This document shows positions 1,583 through 6,873 of a stretch of DNA of 11,079 bases, in pieces (positions within the stretch are counted from its first letter, which is position 1; each line of letters starts with the position of its first letter). The stretch is from a virus: UHGV virus genome UHGV-0353412; one strand, given 5' to 3'. The position numbers were made by a program, and so were the translations under genes. The notes under the pieces are model-generated. The model ran no database searches and was not told the origin of the DNA. It saw only the letters and a program-made list of their open reading frames with translations.

Positions 1583-1800
1583 GAAAACAACCCATTATCA
1601 AATACAAGGCCCGACATGAAAACGCCAGAAAAAGGCATTTTCGGACACTTTCATGTCGGACCTTTACGGATGCAATATTAAAAAAAACAAAAAGTTATAT
1701 TCGAGAAGTACCGACACGATTTTCCCTGAAAAATTTTCATAAATAGTGAAAAACCGCGAGGTCGCCGCCCCGTAACGATCTGGATCACCGGAAAGGACCC
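1583..1800 (-). other. cos site: cosN with lambda-type 12-nt cohesive end (AGGTCGCCGCCC on plus strand at 1759..1770), cosB between cosN and Nu1, cosQ-like sequence at 1771..1800
   Basis: Reverse complement of 1737..1770 reads GGGCGGCGACCTCGCGGTTTTTCACTATTTATGAAAATTTTT, near-identical to the lambda left end GGGCGGCGACCTCGCGGGTTTTCGCTATTTATGAAAATTTTC. Reverse complement of 1771..1801 reads CGGGTCCTTTCCGGTGATCCAGATCGTTACG, matching the lambda right end. cosB (1583..1750) diverges from lambda and carries an inverted repeat CCGACATGAAA (1611..1621) / TTTCATGTCGG (1649..1659). Confidence 0.85.
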
Positions 1801-1993
1801 GCCAACGACTTTCGCGTGCAGGCATTAAAAATTTTGCAGTTCCATGCCTAGTTGAAACCTCGATTTCTATAACATCCAATTTTGTAAATTTAGATATAGC
1901 TCAACTTTTCCCAATGTTTTCAAGTGTATAAAAACAATTGGCGTTACGCCATAACACTATACTTAGGATAAGTAAAGATTTTAAGGAGTTTTA

Positions 1994-3061
1994 ATGAGTC
2001 AACATCAATATTATCCACAGCTGAAATGGAAGCCTGCTGAATATGAATCTCTGATGCTTTTAGATCAAACTACGCTCTCTGGTTTTACTCCGATCATTAC
2101 CATTCCAGACATAGACTGGGATTATGAAAACGAATGCTACAAGAAGAATTTGAGTTCTTACTTATCTGACTTCGGTATTAACCTTGCGGCATCCTGGAAA
2201 GCCAATCGTCCTGTTTTGCTGGATGTTAAATATTTAGATAAACATGGTTCGAGCCGCCATCATCCTCTAGATATGTGTATCCAAGATGCTAGAGTAAATG
2301 GTAAGGAAATTATCCCTGTTGTTTCTCCCGCATATTCAACAAACTATATACATGCTGTTCAACGCAACTTAATCAATGGGCTCGCTATATCTATCACCCC
2401 CCAGACATGGCACCAATTCACAAGTCTGGTTAACCACTTAAATATTCATCCTAGTTTAATTGATGTAATCATTGATTTTGGAGATATTCAAAACGCAACT
2501 GATAGTTTAAAACAACAAGCATTAAGCATGGTCAACACATTATCAGGCCAAGCTCCGTGGAGAAACTTGATTTTATCTTCAACCGCATACCCGGCATCAC
2601 AGGCAGGGATACCGCAACATCAAGTTCATCATATTCCGCGCCATGAATACGATCTTTGGATGTACGTAGTACAGAATTTTAGCAATGGAAGAACGCCAAG
2701 TTTTAGTGATTATCCCACCGCTAGCTCTACCATTACGAGCGTAGACCCACGCTTCATGTCTCAGTATGTCTCAGTGAGATATTCGAACGATACCTCATGG
2801 ATCTTTGTAAAAGGTACCGCAGTTAAAGGAAATGGATGGGGCCAAACTAAAAACTTATGTACTACCCTTGTTAGTTCGCCAGAGTATCAAGTCTTTGGCT
2901 CCAAATTTAGTTGGGGGGATGATTACATTTACCAAAGATCATTAGGCGCTAACAAATCTGGCGGCTCTAAAGAATGGCGTAAAGTTGCACATACGCACCA
3001 TATTACGTTAGTCGTGAGACAGCTTTATTGGTTGGCGCAGACTCAGCCTGCCAAGCCTTAA
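1994..3061 (+). CDS. Hypothetical 355-aa protein of the AT-rich cassette; possible 'beta protein / sce7725-like' family member (unverified), candidate defence component
   Basis: Uninterrupted 355-codon ORF with a strong SD (AAGGAG, 5-nt spacer, ATG at 1994) and an AT-rich upstream region containing TG-TATAAA at 1925..1932. About 37% GC in sampled 60-nt lines versus about 57% in a sampled line of the Rz gene. It is the only sizeable plus-strand gene in an otherwise minus-strand prophage. N-terminal YYPQLKWKPAEYESL resembles what I recall of beta/sce7725-family N-termini, but I cannot confirm this without an HMM search. Confidence 0.8.
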   Translation: MSQHQYYPQLKWKPAEYESLMLLDQTTLSGFTPIITIPDIDWDYENECYKKNLSSYLSDFGINLAASWKANRPVLLDVKYLDKHGSSRHHPLDMCIQDARVNGKEIIPVVSPAYSTNYIHAVQRNLINGLAISITPQTWHQFTSLVNHLNIHPSLIDVIIDFGDIQNATDSLKQQALSMVNTLSGQAPWRNLILSSTAYPASQAGIPQHQVHHIPRHEYDLWMYVVQNFSNGRTPSFSDYPTASSTITSVDPRFMSQYVSVRYSNDTSWIFVKGTAVKGNGWGQTKNLCTTLVSSPEYQVFGSKFSWGDDYIYQRSLGANKSGGSKEWRKVAHTHHITLVVRQLYWLAQTQPAKP

Positions 3062-3623
3062 CTTTCCAGCCTACGCGTTTCTTTAAGGCTGTTCTGACTT
3101 CAGGCCTGAGATTCGCTATTGGAATATTTTCCGCAATAATATTCCATAACTCAAATCGGGGCTTGCTTTTGATTCCTTTGGAATAGCCCCATCGTTCAAG
3201 TACGTCGATACATTCATCTTTCCAAAGCAATTGAGCGAGCATCAATGTGTCATGGTTTCGATTAAGCTTTTCTCCACGCATGTGCTTTATAAGAATGGCG
3301 CCTTTTGGCCCAACAGAAACCGTTTTAACGCCCCACCAACCTGGGATTAACTTTAATGCTCCCTCAAGGTGTTTCTCAGCTACGACAAGAGTAACCTTGT
3401 CCATTACAGAAGAATAATGCTTGATTTGAAGAGGCAAACGCTCCAAAGAGTCATATTCACTTTTGAGCTCGTACCCGTGTATAACACCATTTATTACAGC
3501 AATGTCTGCTCTACTGGCGCCAAGGGATATGGAAAATTCATCGACCACAAGGCAGTCTGGATCTAAATGCGATTCTTTCAAAAGCTTATGATGCACCGCG
3601 AACCTAACATCTTGATCTTTCAT
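3003..3623 (-). CDS. PD-(D/E)xK nuclease-fold protein, 206 aa (possibly sce7726-like); candidate effector of the cassette
   Basis: ORF with SD GGAGGGAGTAAGGAG upstream of ATG at 3623. The translation carries a canonical PD-(D/E)xK signature: E17 and D28/E29, then SRADIAVING (D40, codon 3504..3506), then GYELKS (E52 at 3468..3470, K54 at 3462..3464), followed by LPLQIKHY. Convergent with the 355-aa gene and overlapping it by 59 nt at the 3' ends. Confidence 0.85.
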   Translation of the reverse strand: MKDQDVRFAVHHKLLKESHLDPDCLVVDEFSISLGASRADIAVINGVIHGYELKSEYDSLERLPLQIKHYSSVMDKVTLVVAEKHLEGALKLIPGWWGVKTVSVGPKGAILIKHMRGEKLNRNHDTLMLAQLLWKDECIDVLERWGYSKGIKSKPRFELWNIIAENIPIANLRPEVRTALKKRVGWKVKAWQAESAPTNKAVSRLT

Positions 3624-3651
3624 GACTTCTCCTTACTCCCTCCGTTATTGA

Positions 3652-3680
3652 ATTATAGCGCACTGCATTTTACTGCATTT
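3652..3680 (-). promoter_or_regulatory. Putative promoter and operator for the nuclease gene: perfect -10 TATAAT (minus strand; plus 3652..3657) flanked upstream by two tandem 9-bp direct repeats (plus-strand ACTGCATTT at 3662..3670 and 3672..3680)
   Basis: Minus-strand sequence reads AAATGCAGTAAAATGCAGTGCGCTATAATTCAATAACGGAGGGAGTAAGGAGAAGATG. The -10 hexamer is consensus, but no good -35 is present; the direct repeats have a 10-bp period and occupy the -35 position, which suggests activator or repressor binding. Confidence 0.4.
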
Positions 3681-3969
3681 GAGAGATTTGACCACTTCAA
3701 TCACAAAATGCTTATCTGCAGCAACAAGATTCATAGCCATACGACTATGGTGATTACCTTTTGTCTGGAAAAATGACCATTCCACGAAGATCAGATAGGT
3801 CTATAGAATCTTGGTTTGTCATAGCGTTCGTCTTACTTTGAGATGAACCTTTGCTGCATAGGAGATCAGCCCGTCAAGGCTCACCAGCACTAACTGACTA
3901 CTCAAAGGCTCATTCCAAAGGGTTTGGTTCGACGTGGTTGAGTGCGCTGCGGTGCGCGGTGAAATACCT

Positions 3970-4002
3970 GTACAAAAATGCCCCGCATCTGCGAGGCATT
4001 TT
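3970..4002 (-). terminator. Rho-independent terminator downstream of Rz/Rz1 (end of the late lysis operon)
   Basis: Minus-strand hairpin AAAATGCCTCGCAGATGCGGGGCATTTT (stem arms AAAATGCC / GGCATTTT with a GC-rich inner extension) followed by TTTTTG, about 40 nt past the Rz stop at 4040. Confidence 0.6.
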
Positions 4003-4039: not shown

Positions 4040-4513
4040 TTATTTTAAGCACTGCGTCCTGATGTACTCCTGCAGGTAGTTGACCTGAGCGGTTAACTTG
4101 TCGATTCCACTTCGGAGACGGTAATAATTGAGTTCAGCATCTGCTGTAAGTCTTGGGCTTTCTCCATCGCCCATGCTGCTGGCTCCGGTCGTTGACTTTG
4201 CACAGGTGGCGGCGACTTGCAGGCGCTTACGCCCAGCAGAAACATCAGCACGAAGACTTTCGATAGTCGCGTTAGCATCAGCAAGCTCCTTTGTGTATCT
4301 GGCGTCGAGTTCTGCTACATCACGCTGACGCATCTGCATGTCAGTAATTGCCACGTTCGCCAGCTTCAGTTCTCTGGCATTTTTGTCGCGCTGGGCTTTG
4401 TAGGTAATGGCGTTATCGCGGTAATGATTAACAGCCCATGACAGGCAGACGATGGTGCAGATAACCAGAGTATAAATAATCGCTGCGACTCTGCTCACTG
4501 ATCTATCCCCCAA
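4040..4513 (-). CDS. Rz: Rz i-spanin (inner-membrane spanin subunit)
   Basis: 157-aa ORF with an N-terminal TM segment ([71 protein letters not shown]...) that is highly similar to lambda Rz as I recall it. Sits directly downstream of the endolysin. Confidence 0.93.
4093..4284 (-). CDS. Rz1: Rz1 o-spanin (outer-membrane lipoprotein spanin subunit), embedded in Rz in an alternative frame
   Basis: 63-aa ORF wholly inside Rz: [22 protein letters not shown] has a lipoprotein signal and lipobox (VSAC), followed by a proline-rich mature region ([16 protein letters not shown]). This is the classic Rz/Rz1 embedded architecture. Confidence 0.85.
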
Positions 4514-5028
4514 CAGGCTAATGCGCTTTCCTGGTCACGACGAATAACCTGTCCATAGCAGTTATTTGAACGTATGCGGCAATCGCGCCCACCATCTTTT
4601 ATCCACCAGCGAATCGCCTCGCATGCGCCCTTACGATCACCGGCATTCAGCCGCTTATAAAACGTCGACGGGAAACACTTACCGGGGCCAATGTTATAGG
4701 GACATAATGACGCTATACCCGCTTTCTGTGGTTCGGTCAGTGGTACTTTAATATTGCGCTCCACCCATGCCAGCGCCTTATCACGTTCAATAGCGTTAAC
4801 CTGGTCGCATTCTTCCTTCGACAGCTTCATTCCCGGTATGACGGGCTTACCATCCACCATTGTGGCACCACGACAGATGGTCCATATACCGGAACCATCG
4901 CGGTATGCCGTAGTGTGGTTACCCTCTTTTTCATCCAGAAACTGGTCAAGTATTTGAGGAGCAGACGCGCCTGCAGCAATCAGCGCCAGAACAGCAGCTG
5001 ACAGGCCGTATTTGATTTTTGCGCTCAT
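4495..5028 (-). CDS. R: SAR endolysin (phage 21 R21-like lysozyme, T4-lysozyme/GH24 family)
   Basis: 177-aa ORF with an N-terminal Gly/Ala-rich signal-anchor-release segment ([17 protein letters not shown]) and the catalytic region [25 protein letters not shown] (E-D-T triad pattern of R21). Same length as K-12 RrrQ as I recall it. Confidence 0.93.
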
Positions 5029-5083
5029 GGATATTTATCAGGATGCTACCAATGAAAGATACTGGAAAGCCAACTGCAAAAAG

Positions 5084-5398
5084 CTAACAACCCGTAATCG
5101 AGTTATCAGAACTGTTAATTTTTATGGTATACCGCGCCTCTGAACAGGGGCGCGTTTCTGGCAACAGCTCGTCCCCTTCACATAACCCGGCAGCAACATC
5201 CAGGAAGACCTGTCTGATGCTCCTTCTGGCTGCTGCCTCATAAAACTCCAGCGCGGCACCTTCAACACGGTCCAGCGAGATGTCCAGGTCAAAAATTTCA
5301 CCGTCAAAGCGTTTTTTGTCCCGTAACGCTAAAGTTACCGTAACTTTATTCTCAAAATTGCGGATCCCTTTCACAATCAGTTCATATTTTTGAGTCAT
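5084..5398 (-). CDS. DUF1327-family protein (YdfR-like), function unknown, placed between holin and endolysin
   Basis: 104-aa ORF in the same position and of the same size as ydfR between essQ and rrrQ in the K-12 Qin prophage (from memory). No signal peptide or catalytic motif recognised. The family name is recalled, not verified. Confidence 0.7.
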   Translation of the reverse strand: MTQKYELIVKGIRNFENKVTVTLALRDKKRFDGEIFDLDISLDRVEGAALEFYEAAARRSIRQVFLDVAAGLCEGDELLPETRPCSEARYTIKINSSDNSITGC

Positions 5399-5402
5399 TG
5401 AA

Positions 5403-5618
5403 TTACTCTCCCCGTGCAGCCTTACGCTTGTCTTCTTTAATCTTGAAATAAAGGTTTGTCAGGTACGTCAGCAGGCCAAATACCAGGCTACCCAGCACAC
5501 CTATTGCTGCCCACTGTGAGGGCGTGACTTTATCGAGCAGCTGTAAAAACCAGTAGCCAGCACTGCCTGCGGAGGTGCCGTAGGCAATGCCTGTTGAAAT
5601 TTTGTCCATGGATTTCAT
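5403..5618 (-). CDS. S: Pinholin S21-type holin/antiholin with dual-start motif (MKSMDK)
   Basis: Translation [71 protein letters not shown] is near-identical to phage 21 S21 as I recall it. ATG at 5618 gives the 71-aa antiholin form and ATG at 5609 the 68-aa holin form. SD GGAGGTGAGG lies upstream of 5618. The track's 90-aa extension to 5675 was not used. Confidence 0.9.
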
Positions 5619-5720
5619 AACCTCACCTCCGCACGGAACGGATGGCATAGTTGTTATGTGTAGGCTTCCAGACACATCAATCAGAGCCTTAATTGATATA
5701 TATGCTGGAGACGATGCAAT

Positions 5721-5744
5721 ATAAAAAGCTCGCCGTAGCGAGCT
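5721..5744 (-). terminator. Putative rho-independent terminator downstream of the lipoprotein moron genes
   Basis: Minus-strand hairpin AGCTCGC-TACG-GCGAGCT (7-bp stem, plus 5727..5744) followed by TTTTTAT, between the lipoprotein gene (ends 5870) and the holin start (5618). Confidence 0.5.
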
Positions 5745-5869
5745 AATAAAATGTATTTCTCTGATATTATGTTTATTTGTATTAGCTCAGACTTGACATC
5801 ACAGGTTTCGTATATAGAACATCATCAAATCTGTCAGTTTGCTATGAATGAGATATAGTAATTGAAGAG

Positions 5870-6265
5870 CTAACCTCGCATGTCAAAGCCAGATTTCTGA
5901 AAATCTCTGTAGACTTCCGGATTGTTGAAGGCCGGAAATTTGGCTTTATGAGCTGCGGACTTTATCGCTTCGCAATAGGCTTTATCACCGTTACTGGTAG
6001 ATATTTTTAACGCCGTGCCATCCTGAGAGAATTCCATATGCAACCTGCATTTTTTCCCTTTCCAGTTATGCGGCTCATCAAGTTTGGCATTAATTGCAGC
6101 TCTGATTCCCCGCGCTTGCGCCCCCCATTCATCCTGATCATCCCAGCGTCCTGAACTGCAACTACCTGTAGCAGTAGTTTTGTGGCAATCTGAAGGGTGT
6201 AAAGGTGTGCATCCCGCAACAAAACCGACCCAAAAAGTCAACATAACGATTTTCTTTAATCCCAC
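5870..6265 (-). CDS. Lipoprotein with a divergent TolA domain-III-like C-terminal domain (moron)
   Basis: 131-aa ORF with GTG start at 6265 preceded by SD GAGGAG. Signal peptide with lipobox (MGLKKIVMLTFWVGFVAGC). The C-terminal KGKKCRLHMEFSQDGTALKISTSNGDKAYCEAIKSAAHKAKFPAFNNPEVYRDFQKS is paralogous to the C-terminus of the adjacent 142-aa lipoprotein and shares its TolA-III-like pattern. Confidence 0.8.
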   Translation of the reverse strand: MGLKKIVMLTFWVGFVAGCTPLHPSDCHKTTATGSCSSGRWDDQDEWGAQARGIRAAINAKLDEPHNWKGKKCRLHMEFSQDGTALKISTSNGDKAYCEAIKSAAHKAKFPAFNNPEVYRDFQKSGFDMRG

Positions 6266-6415
6266 TTCTTGCTCCTCAATCCATTAAAATCTCAGCAATA
6301 GTAGTTGTTACGTCCGCCACTGGCTCAGAGCTGACTATCCGCTAAATTTAGCTCAGTGCCGTAGTTGTGTCAGAACAAACCTAAGCCGAAACCGTTTATT
6401 ACAAAACAATAAATA

Positions 6416-6844
6416 TCAGGGTTTAAAATCCAGCACCCCATTTTGAAATACTTTATATACTTCCGGCGAAGGGGGGGCAGGTATATCAGCATTCTTTATC
6501 GCATTCATCGCTTCACGACATAAATCGAGGTCTCCACTTTCTCTTTTAACCTCCAGTAGAAGGCCATTCGGGGCCATATGCATTCTCAGTGTACACTCTT
6601 TTCCTGAATACTTACTCGCATCCCCGAACTGTTTTTCGATGGCGCTCTTGATTTGATGGGCATACAGACGGATATCCTCACTAACATCAGAAGTACGTTC
6701 AGATGAACTCACATACTGTGTCTCTATTGCTTTATCGGAGTAATATGATGTACGGTCATGATAATTTGTCGATACAGCATCAGTGCACCCGATAATAATC
6801 CCACTAATAATCAACGTAAGAATTGATGCGCTACGAAAACCCAT
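6416..6844 (-). CDS. Lipoprotein with a TolA C-terminal domain (domain III)-like fold (moron)
   Basis: 142-aa ORF with SD GAGGAAAA before ATG at 6844 and lipobox IIGC. The C-terminal YAHQIKSAIEKQFGDASKYSGKECTLRMHMAPNGLLLEVKRESGDLDLCREAMNAIKNADIPAPPSPEVYKVFQNGVLDFKP aligns along its length with the E. coli TolA C-terminus as I recall it (YAGQIKSAIESKFYDASSYAGKTCTLRIKLAPDGMLLDIKPEGGDPALCQAALAAAKLAKIPKPPSQAVYEVFKNAPLDFKP). Confidence 0.85.
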   Translation of the reverse strand: MGFRSASILTLIISGIIIGCTDAVSTNYHDRTSYYSDKAIETQYVSSSERTSDVSEDIRLYAHQIKSAIEKQFGDASKYSGKECTLRMHMAPNGLLLEVKRESGDLDLCREAMNAIKNADIPAPPSPEVYKVFQNGVLDFKP

Positions 6845-6873
6845 TTTTCCTCACATATGTCATATAGTAAAGG

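What the first reader, a model, noticed from the sequence alone, without database searches (positions are those of the whole stretch)
1994..3623. AT-rich convergent two-gene cassette (355-aa unknown protein plus PD-(D/E)xK nuclease) in the Rz-cos moron hotspot: candidate anti-phage defence system
Between the lysis-operon terminator (about 3970) and cos (about 1760), where lambda carries bor, this prophage has a 1.6-kb insert of clearly lower GC (about 37% in sampled lines of the 355-aa gene against about 57% in a sampled line of Rz). It encodes two genes that are not part of the late operon: the 355-aa gene is on the opposite strand to every other phage gene, and each gene has its own SD and promoter-like elements. 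The 206-aa protein carries an unambiguous PD-(D/E)xK signature (D40 in RADIAVING; E52 and K54 in GYELK). The 355-aa partner has no motif I can assign; it is not a methyltransferase, so this is not a classical R-M pair. Independently expressed, horizontally acquired nuclease-plus-partner cassettes at prophage ends are the typical signature of lysogen-protecting defence systems. The pair may correspond to the uncharacterised 'beta protein (sce7725)' / 'sce7726' co-occurring families, which I recall but cannot verify here; to my knowledge no function is established for them.
Basis: partly seen in the sequence, partly recalled or inferred. Interest (0 to 1): 0.85.

Follow-up and report, generated by a model that had tools for sequence, protein, structure and literature searches.

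The report
Gop-less beta/cII defence gene pair
This lambdoid prophage carries, next to cos, a two-gene module (a TIM-barrel "beta" protein and a PD-(D/E)xK nuclease) that is a stripped-down relative of the phage P4 gop-beta-cII anti-phage system, so it is probably a defence module of a known kind, not a new one.

Summary
Both ORFs exist as described: 1994-3061(+), 355 aa, and 3003-3623(-), 206 aa, convergent with a 59-nt overlap. They sit in a 2.0-kb lower-GC insert (about 1809-3818) between Rz and cos.

The 355-aa protein is a full-length Pfam Beta_protein with a confident TIM-barrel model. The 206-aa protein is an sce7726 / Phage_P4_cII protein with a PD-(D/E)xK fold and invariant E29, D40, E52 and K54.

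These are the beta and cII components of P4 gop-beta-cII, shown in 2022 to protect against lambda and P1. Beta is also component C of PD-lambda-2. The window has no gop, HigB or Xre-peptidase gene.

In about 110 non-redundant loci from many phyla the pair is always convergent, with 3' ends interlocked at a near-constant spacing. PD-lambda-2-type operons also carry the convergent cII gene. The two-gene form looks like the common core.

Natural IS knockouts of beta leave the nuclease gene intact. That argues against a toxin-antitoxin or restriction-modification logic.

No two-gene form has been tested experimentally.

The parts
1809..3818 (.). Cassette-specific DNA (moron insert) between cos and the DNA shared with other lambdoid prophages
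   Evidence: Flanking homology in about 2,600 E. coli genomes stops at window ~1808 on the left and resumes at ~3819 on the right. The whole cassette is present in 126 of 5,426 genomes. GC is 41.4% for window 1800-3990, which contains the cassette, against 47.9% for the rest of the window (4040-11079).
1983..1988 (+). AAGGAG Shine-Dalgarno of the beta gene, 5 nt before the ATG
   Evidence: Read directly from the sequence.
1994..3061 (+). Beta-family gene, 355 aa, TIM-barrel protein (putative sensor/regulator, possibly an enzyme)
3003..3061 (.). 59-nt antisense overlap of the two 3' coding ends
   Evidence: 107 of 110 unique pairs overlap, and all 107 overlaps are in the same phase. Spacing between conserved anchor codons is 34 nt in 83 of 110 pairs and 73 nt in this clade. 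The conserved motifs are dual-coded in the common form.
3003..3623 (-). sce7726 / Phage_P4_cII-family gene, 206 aa, PD-(D/E)xK nuclease with a C-terminal helical domain and a disordered tail (residues 189-206)
3462..3539 (-). Codons of the catalytic core: E29 (3537-3539), D40 (3504-3506), E52 (3468-3470), K54 (3462-3464)
   Evidence: Invariant in 37 homologues including P4 cII and Gordonia phage copies, and at least 95% conserved in 109 sequences.
3629..3634 (-). AAGGAG Shine-Dalgarno of the nuclease gene, 5 nt before the ATG
   Evidence: Read directly from the sequence.
3667..3694 (-). Promoter-like site upstream of the nuclease gene (TGGTCA-16-TAAAAT, 9 of 12)
   Evidence: A consensus match only, and such sites are not enriched over shuffles.
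1759..1770 (-). cosN (context: the cassette abuts the packaging site)
   Evidence: Reverse complement of GGGCGGCGACCT. Nu1 lies immediately beyond it.
3975..4002 (.). Bidirectional terminator hairpin after Rz (context: lies in shared phage DNA, outside the insert)
   Evidence: -16.0 kcal/mol (+ strand) and -19.8 kcal/mol (- strand), z -4.0 and -5.0, flanked by A and T runs.

Best explanation
The cassette is a minimal, gop-less version of the beta/cII module known from satellite phage P4. It is carried as a moron next to cos in a lambdoid prophage. It most likely protects the lysogen against other phages.

Shown here:
- One gene encodes a Beta_protein-family TIM barrel. The other encodes an sce7726/Phage_P4_cII-family PD-(D/E)xK nuclease with an intact catalytic tetrad.
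- The two genes are an obligate, convergent, 3'-interlocked pair across bacterial phyla.
- The same pair is the shared core of P4 gop-beta-cII and of PD-lambda-2-type operons.

Inferred mechanism:
- Beta is the sensing or licensing subunit. It evolves faster than its partner. It is required for defence, but not for toxin neutralisation, in PD-lambda-2.
- Beta may be an enzyme, because its conserved Asp/Glu/His/Arg/Tyr residues mostly sit at or next to strand ends of the barrel.
- The cII-like nuclease is the effector. It stays inactive until beta responds to a phage cue, as orf184 triggers the P4 system. It then cuts DNA, either directly restricting the phage or aborting the infection.
- Convergent transcription through the shared 3' ends probably couples the expression of the two genes.
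For: - Family assignments.
- Direct homology to P4 beta and cII, with the same convergent layout.
- P4 gop-beta-cII protects against lambda and P1 (PMC9122126) and is triggered by orf184.
- Nuclease fold and invariant catalytic residues.
- TIM barrel with a conserved polar constellation.
- Pairing selected on cII: 161 of 165 sequences (164 loci plus the window) have beta, all convergent. At least 2 of the 4 exceptions are cut by a contig end.
- Pairing selected on PD-lambda-2B: 5 of 5.
- Pairing selected on beta: at least 17 of 21 plasmids.
- Fixed 34-nt anchor spacing and dual coding.
- Defence-island and mobile contexts (type I R-M, KAP/AAA NTPases, resolvases, reverse transcriptase, integrase).
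- The two-gene form is the most common. 32 of 57 diverse loci have no operonic gene upstream of beta, and 11 of 57 have PD-lambda-2 A/B.
- Beta diverges faster than cII (median identity 28% against 45%), and the two co-vary (Spearman 0.72).
- The cassette is 99-100% identical and intact in 126 E. coli genomes.
Against: - No two-gene beta/cII module has been tested for phage protection in anything I could find.
- The only component with demonstrated toxicity in P4 (Gop) and the toxic parts of PD-lambda-2 (A and B) are absent here.
- The PD-lambda-2 clone had only 396 bp beyond the end of C. It probably worked without a complete cII, so the nuclease may be dispensable there.
- Beta's fold match is generic. 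No ligand, substrate or interaction with the nuclease is shown.
- Promoter evidence is weak.
- IS-disrupted beta alleles show that the module can be lost without harm. That is also what a neutral passenger would show.
Confidence: 0.55

Rival explanations
1. Phage life-cycle or DNA-metabolism function. The pair serves the carrier element itself, for example in the lysogeny decision (P4 'cII' is named like a lysogeny-control gene) or in DNA repair or processing (MmcB-like nuclease), and not in immunity against other phages.
Against: Most copies sit in bacterial chromosomes and plasmids, in defence-island or mobile contexts and not in phage functional modules. Rousset et al. call the P4 genes non-essential. 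Related lambdoid prophages do without the cassette. Both characterised relatives gave anti-phage phenotypes.
Confidence: 0.15
2. Classical toxin-antitoxin or addiction module. The nuclease is a constitutively active toxin and beta is its antitoxin, stabilising the prophage.
For: P4 beta is described as counteracting Gop toxicity, and PD-lambda-2 is TA-like. The genes are tightly linked and overlap.
Against: Two independent natural knockouts of beta exist: IS1 at about codon 296 and IS5 at about codon 109. In both, the nuclease gene encodes the identical protein WP_000654791.1 and the cassette sequence outside the IS insertion is 100% identical. Frameshifted or split beta with intact cII occurs in four other loci (that sample was selected on cII). 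Convergent genes with separate promoters are not a TA-operon layout.
Confidence: 0.1
3. Inactive remnant. The pair is what is left of a three- or four-gene system (gop-beta-cII or PD-lambda-2) after the toxic effector was lost, and it has no function on its own.
For: Gop, HigB and Xre-peptidase are the parts with demonstrated toxicity, and all are absent here. IS insertions in or next to beta occur in a few genomes.
Against: The two-gene form is the most common arrangement in diverse phyla (32 of 57). Catalytic and barrel residues are conserved across about 100 divergent sequences. Gop was found only in P4 among the 165 sequences searched. The cassette has intact ORFs, Shine-Dalgarno sites and 99-100% identity in 126 genomes.
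Confidence: 0.1
4. Restriction-modification-like pair. The TIM-barrel beta modifies host DNA (compare the TIM-barrel DNA transglycosylase DpdA), and the nuclease cuts unmodified incoming DNA.
Confidence: 0.07

Closest known systems
P4 gop-beta-cII anti-phage system (Rousset et al. 2022; PADLOC gop_beta_cll; 'Rst_gop_beta_cll')
   Same: Homologous beta (PF14350, both 355 aa) and homologous cII (sce7726 / PF26915). Both have the convergent beta -> <- cII layout. Both sit directly next to the cos site of a mobile element.
   Different: No gop gene, which is the membrane protein toxic without beta. Identity is only 21% (beta) and 27% (cII). The host element is a lambdoid prophage, not a P4 satellite. 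The 3' ends overlap by 59 nt here, whereas P4 has a 27-nt gap with a terminator and a longer cII (264 aa).
PD-lambda-2 (Vassallo et al. 2022): HigB-like A, Xre-HTH/M78-peptidase B, beta-like C
   Same: The window's beta scores best against the PADLOC PD-Lambda-2_C models (6e-32). PD-lambda-2-type operons in many phyla also carry the convergent, overlapping cII gene behind C.
   Different: No A or B gene in the window. The published system is defined by three genes, with no mention of cII in the passages I read. I could not check whether the ECOR42 locus has cII.
MmcB-like / SPO1766 (PDB 3dnx) and other PD-(D/E)xK nucleases (Can2 nuclease domain, NucS, type II restriction enzymes)
Convergently transcribed type II restriction-modification gene pairs (analogy only; from general knowledge)
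   Same: Enzyme plus PD-(D/E)xK nuclease encoded tail to tail, where convergent transcription can set the expression ratio.
   Different: The partner is a TIM barrel, not a methyltransferase. Loss of the partner is tolerated.

Membership tests
Pfam PF14350 Beta_protein | Full-length match above the gathering score | tested here: met
   190.6 bits against a cut-off of 27; residues 6-342 on profile positions 1-342 of 342.
NCBIfam NF033832 sce7726 family / Pfam PF26915 Phage_P4_cII | Full-length match above the curated cut-off | tested here: met
   184.1 bits against a cut-off of 70; residues 1-183 on profile positions 1-182 of 184. Close homologues carry PF26915. The local Pfam copy gave no hit.
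PD-(D/E)xK nuclease superfamily | alpha-beta-beta-beta-alpha-beta core fold with the E...D...(D/E)xK catalytic residues | tested here: met
PD-(D/E)xK nuclease superfamily | Metal-dependent nucleic-acid cleavage | not testable with these tools
   Needs a biochemical assay.
gop-beta-cII system (P4) | beta homologue present | tested here: met
   PADLOC 'beta' 7e-10. BLASTP against P4 beta 3e-7 over the full length.
gop-beta-cII system (P4) | cII homologue present, convergent to beta | tested here: met
   PADLOC 'cll' 4e-31. BLASTP against P4 cII 3e-19. Layout.
gop-beta-cII system (P4) | gop gene upstream of beta in the same operon | tested here: not met
   1809-1993 is non-coding and no ORF of 72 aa or more other than the two genes lies between Nu1 and Rz. 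phmmer and tblastn with Gop found it only in P4 among the 165 sequences searched, which include the window.
gop-beta-cII system (P4) | Protection against phages (lambda, P1); toxicity triggered by orf184 | not testable with these tools
   Reported for P4-type systems only.
PD-lambda-2 | HigB-like toxin gene (A) | tested here: not met
   No such ORF in the cassette. Where present, A is detected easily (PADLOC 5e-34, Pfam HigB_toxin 7e-23).
PD-lambda-2 | Xre-HTH / M78 peptidase gene (B) | tested here: not met
   No ORF of about 400 aa upstream of beta.
PD-lambda-2 | Beta-like component C | tested here: met
   PADLOC PD-Lambda-2_C 6e-32 and 2e-25.
Type II toxin-antitoxin module | The antitoxin gene cannot be lost while the toxin gene stays intact | tested here: not met
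   IS1- and IS5-disrupted beta with an identical, intact nuclease gene in two complete E. coli genomes.
Type II restriction-modification system | DNA methyltransferase partner | tested here: not met
   The partner is a TIM barrel of family PF14350 with no methyltransferase match.

The most novel reading that the evidence does not exclude
The convergent beta/cII pair is an autonomous, ancient two-gene immune core. Its TIM-barrel subunit is a real enzyme with chemistry not yet described in phage defence, for example making, destroying or sensing a small molecule or a nucleic-acid feature. That activity would license a dedicated PD-(D/E)xK nuclease. Gop and the HigB/Xre-peptidase pair would then be plug-in effectors added to this core. 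On this reading 'gop-beta-cII' and 'PD-lambda-2' are one system family, and published PD-lambda-2 has an overlooked fourth gene. The dual-coded 3' overlap would be a conserved regulatory device and a linkage device.
Probability: 0.3. Interest if true: 0.75.

Novelty: new variant of a known kind. Interest (0 to 1): 0.55.

Why it matters
Beta and cII have had no assigned biochemical function since P4 was sequenced. The two published defence systems that contain beta are treated as unrelated.

This cassette is the simplest natural form: two genes in 2 kb, with no separate toxin. That makes it the cleanest construct for asking what the TIM barrel and the nuclease do.

The comparative data predict three things:
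- The pair, not gop or HigB/Xre-peptidase, is the conserved unit. The beta family has 3,768 clusters at 50% identity.
- Detection rules that require gop (not checked here) would miss most copies.
- Annotation pipelines sometimes miss the convergent gene.

For E. coli biology, the cassette is one more candidate lysogen-protecting moron in about 2% of complete genomes, including the enteroaggregative strain 55989.

Tried and rejected
- Sequence search of both proteins against PDB chains gave nothing meaningful. The best beta hit was E 0.46, and the cII hits to TAF1 (E 0.005) are spurious.
- NCBIfam has no model matching beta, so 'beta = sce7725' could not be tested. ORF listing in the Sorangium locus was too noisy (high GC) to find sce7725.
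- I tried to locate the E. coli PD-lambda-2 locus. blastn of a metagenomic four-gene locus against E. coli genomes found nothing. The top 120 PD-lambda-2B homologues included no E. coli protein. The best plasmid hits for B lacked beta altogether and belong to a more distant HigB/ImmA subfamily.
- The megablast search of the phage collection found no phage record carrying the cassette.
- Ghisotti et al. 1990 (PubMed 2403440) is not held, so the P4 genetics are cited only through Rousset et al..
- Literature searches for sce7726, PF14350, PF26915 and gop-beta-cII from 2023 on found no mechanistic study and no test of a two-gene form.
- The hairpin at 1939-1951(-), flagged as terminator-like, is not significant on folding (z -0.7).
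- Rfam found no RNA family inside the cassette.
- The 'phase-locked overlap' (107 of 107) is not an independent observation. It follows arithmetically from the near-constant spacing of the conserved anchor codons.
- The asymmetry 'beta often broken, cII never' is biased, because those loci were selected on cII.
Full report
**Observation**

The window is the late region of a lambdoid prophage, read on the minus strand. In order it holds DUF968, RusA, antiterminator Q, two tRNAs, holin, YdfR, lysozyme, Rz/Rz1, cos and Nu1. One is 1994-3061 on the plus strand (355 aa). The other is 3003-3623 on the minus strand (206 aa). They are convergent and overlap by 59 nt.

Each gene has an AAGGAG 5 nt before its ATG. 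GC is lower than in the neighbouring phage genes, but by about 9 points, not 20. Beta is 41.0% and the nuclease gene 43.3%, against Rz 50.6% and R 51.3%.

Promoter evidence is thin. There is one 9-of-12 match upstream of the 206-aa gene, and promoter-like sites are not enriched over shuffles. The hairpin after Rz at about 3975-4002 is a strong bidirectional terminator-like structure. It lies in DNA shared with other phages.

Flank comparison across 5,426 complete E. coli genomes puts the insert at about 1809-3818. The flanks occur in roughly 2,600 genomes. The complete cassette occurs in 126, always chromosomal and at 99-100% identity, including strain 55989.

Related prophages carry other cargo in the same slot: iss/bor with an HNH gene, a Rha-family regulator, IS100, or nothing.

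**What the proteins are**

Across 99 divergent homologues a polar set is conserved: Y6, E16, D77, D161, R216, D239, Y240, Y263 and H336, plus D157, R190, R233 and H335. Most of these residues sit at or just after predicted strand ends. That placement is what a catalytic or ligand pocket would show. I could not inspect model coordinates, so this is an inference.

**Relation to known systems**

PADLOC's 'beta' and 'cll' models correspond to two of the three genes of the satellite phage P4 locus gop-beta-cII. In P4 the layout is gop (247-648, +), beta (651-1718, +, also 355 aa) and cII (1746-2540, -), so beta and cII are convergent there as well. The window proteins are 21% and 27% identical to the P4 proteins over their full lengths.

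- Rousset et al. showed that gop-beta-cII protects against lambda and P1. They note that Gop is toxic without beta and that the P4 hotspot is adjacent to cos (PMC9122126).
- Silas et al. found that the phage gene orf184 triggers its toxicity.
- In PD-lambda-2 (Vassallo et al.), a HigB-like protein (A) and an Xre-peptidase (B) are followed by a 'P4 antitoxin-like' component C. [quoted passage not shown]

The claim that no function is established for these families is therefore out of date. The window has no gop, A or B. Positions 1809-1993 are non-coding, and Gop searches hit only P4.

**Comparative anatomy**

I collected 160 loci selected on the cII-like protein: 80 species genomes spanning Proteobacteria, Firmicutes, Myxococcota, Acidobacteriota, CPR phyla and others, and 80 IMG/VR contigs. 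I scanned their ORFs with HMMs for both proteins. I scanned the window, the E. coli 55989 locus, P4, Rac-SA53 and Gordonia phage DumpsterDude in the same way.

- Of these 165 sequences, 161 had a beta gene, and all 161 pairs were convergent.
- Two of the four exceptions are cut by a contig end. The other two are the same Xenorhabdus contig, which has lost beta.
- After deduplication, 107 of 110 unique pairs overlap.
- The distance between the codon of the last invariant cII residue (R183) and the conserved beta histidine (H336) is 34 nt in 83 pairs. It is 73 nt (34 + 39) in the E. coli/Klebsiella clade that includes the window. P4 is the outlier at 345 nt.
- In the 34-nt form, cII's conserved 'LKxRxxWR' and beta's conserved 'NHHxTxVVxQLxNL' helix are encoded on opposite strands of the same DNA. 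The single shared overlap phase follows from this fixed spacing and is not separate evidence.

Pairing also holds when the selection is made on other genes:
- Selected on PD-lambda-2B: 5 of 5 neighbourhoods read HigB, Xre/M78, Beta_protein, then a convergent Phage_P4_cII gene with a 50-nt overlap.
- Selected on beta: at least 17 of 21 plasmid records show the overlapping sce7726 gene.
- In the cII-selected set, 12-14 diverse loci have PD-lambda-2 A and B upstream of beta.
- An annotated example is A. tumefaciens pAt1D1460.

With a simple ORF heuristic, 32 of 57 diverse loci have nothing operonic upstream of beta, 11 have PD-lambda-2 A/B and 14 have assorted small ORFs.

The two-gene pair is therefore the common core, and gop and HigB/Xre-peptidase are additions. 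HigB/ImmA pairs also exist without beta, which fits a modular picture.

The published PD-lambda-2 clone extends only 396 bp past the end of C. That is too short for a complete convergent cII of about 570-630 bp. If ECOR42 has that gene, it was truncated in the clone and is dispensable for that phenotype. I could not verify the ECOR42 sequence.

The convergent gene is left unannotated in some records: Gordonia phage DumpsterDude and a Marinibacterium plasmid.

**Constraints on mechanism**

Two complete E. coli genomes carry the cassette with beta disrupted. One has IS1 near codon 296 and the other IS5 near codon 109. In both, the nuclease gene encodes the identical protein and the cassette sequence outside the IS insertion is 100% identical. 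A third genome has IS2 just upstream of beta.

The nuclease is therefore not lethal without beta. This argues against a plain toxin-antitoxin pair and against a modification-dependent restriction system.

Beta diverges faster than its partner (median identity to the window proteins 28% against 45%). The two co-vary across loci (Spearman 0.72). This is the usual pattern for a sensor coupled to a conserved effector. It also fits the positive requirement for PD-lambda-2C.

The beta family is sizeable: 3,768 clusters at 50% identity at E up to 0.001, and the best 150 are nearly all single-domain proteins of about 350-390 aa.

The neighbourhoods I inspected include type I R-M genes, KAP/AAA NTPases, a reverse transcriptase, resolvases and integrases.

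**Best explanation**

The cassette is a gop-less, minimal beta/cII module and most likely defends the lysogen. I infer that beta senses or licenses and that the nuclease executes. I also infer that convergent transcription through the shared 3' ends couples their expression.

In this prophage, Q-dependent late transcription would run in the sense direction through the nuclease gene and antisense through beta. That could shift their ratio during the phage's own lytic growth. This is speculation from gene orientation only.

I give 0.55 to this overall reading and much less to any specific step. The rivals are a phage-intrinsic function (0.15), an addiction module (0.10), a non-functional remnant (0.10) and an R-M-like pair (0.07).

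**Novelty**

The protein families, their pairing in P4 and a defence role for the three-gene system are all published. This cassette fails the membership test for gop-beta-cII (no gop) and for PD-lambda-2 (no A or B). I therefore class it as a new variant of a known kind.

Three points from this work appear new, as far as the held literature shows:
- the two-gene core shared by the two named systems;
- the dual-coded, fixed-spacing 3' interlock;
- the likely overlooked fourth gene of PD-lambda-2-type operons.

All three are computational inferences and need the experiments listed under next steps.

Noticed in passing
window 5870-6265(-) and 6416-6844(-): Two tandem small lipoprotein-like ORFs (131 and 142 aa), each with a TolA C-terminal domain (Pfam PF06519, 1e-14 and 2e-23). 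They sit in the Q-to-holin moron slot. They could interfere with Tol-dependent phages or colicins.
   Followed up: partly
window 6955-7145(-): Full-length match to the sRNA family STnc100 (Rfam RF02076, 114 bits against a gathering score of 47), just downstream of the TolA-like genes.
   Followed up: no
window 7841-7917(-) and 8018-8093(-): Phage-borne tRNA-Arg(tct) and tRNA-Met(cat) downstream of Q. E. coli 55989 has a different tRNA set (Arg, Arg, Ile) at the same place.
   Followed up: no
window 8237-9058(-): The Q antiterminator (273 aa) carries a DnaJ-type CXXCXGXG zinc-finger region (below the Pfam cut-off) in addition to the Antiterm domain.
   Followed up: no
window 7378-7722(-): A 114-aa ORF with no Pfam match, between the tRNAs and the sRNA.
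   Followed up: no
L004:3956-4633(+) (Gordonia phage DumpsterDude) and L180:3540-4139(-) (Marinibacterium plasmid pLA6_006): The convergent cII-like gene is not annotated in these records, and short ORFs on the other strand are annotated instead. The overlapping antisense layout seems to defeat some gene callers.
   Followed up: yes
L038, L048, L057, L059, L061, L066, L069, L073-L077, L079, L081, L083; L165-L169; L179: PD-lambda-2-type operons (HigB-like, Xre/M78 peptidase, beta) are followed by a convergent, overlapping sce7726/cII gene in every case examined. The published system is described with three genes.
   Followed up: yes
83 loci with 34-nt anchor spacing, e.g. L003:6540-6580: Dual coding: cII 'LKxRxxWR' and beta 'NHHxTxVVxQLxNL' are encoded on opposite strands of the same roughly 40-60 nt. 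The window's clade has a 39-nt insertion that separates the conserved cII motif from the end of beta.
   Followed up: yes
L170 (NZ_CP042892), L171 (NZ_CM128593), L172 (NZ_CP115370): Three independent IS insertions (IS1, IS5, IS2) in or just upstream of beta among 126 otherwise near-identical cassettes. None was seen in the nuclease gene among the listed hits.
   Followed up: partly
L011 / L124 (Xenorhabdus koppenhoeferi contig): A cII-like gene without any beta gene downstream. Three same-strand ORFs (165, 241 and 231 aa) follow instead. This is the only clear uncoupled case in the sample.
   Followed up: no
phage collection: About 290 phage records (mostly Staphylococcus and Bacillus phages) have weak matches (E 1e-4 to 1e-16) to the nuclease domain, but only seven records have beta. 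A wider, unpaired PD-(D/E)xK subfamily exists.
   Followed up: no
L003 (Escherichia phage Rac-SA53, 15680-17315): A second E. coli allele of the pair (54% and 30% identical) sits in a different prophage slot, between the replication/early genes and hok/mok, next to an IS1. The same allele is on an E. coli plasmid (CP061267). The pair moves as a unit between moron slots.
   Followed up: partly
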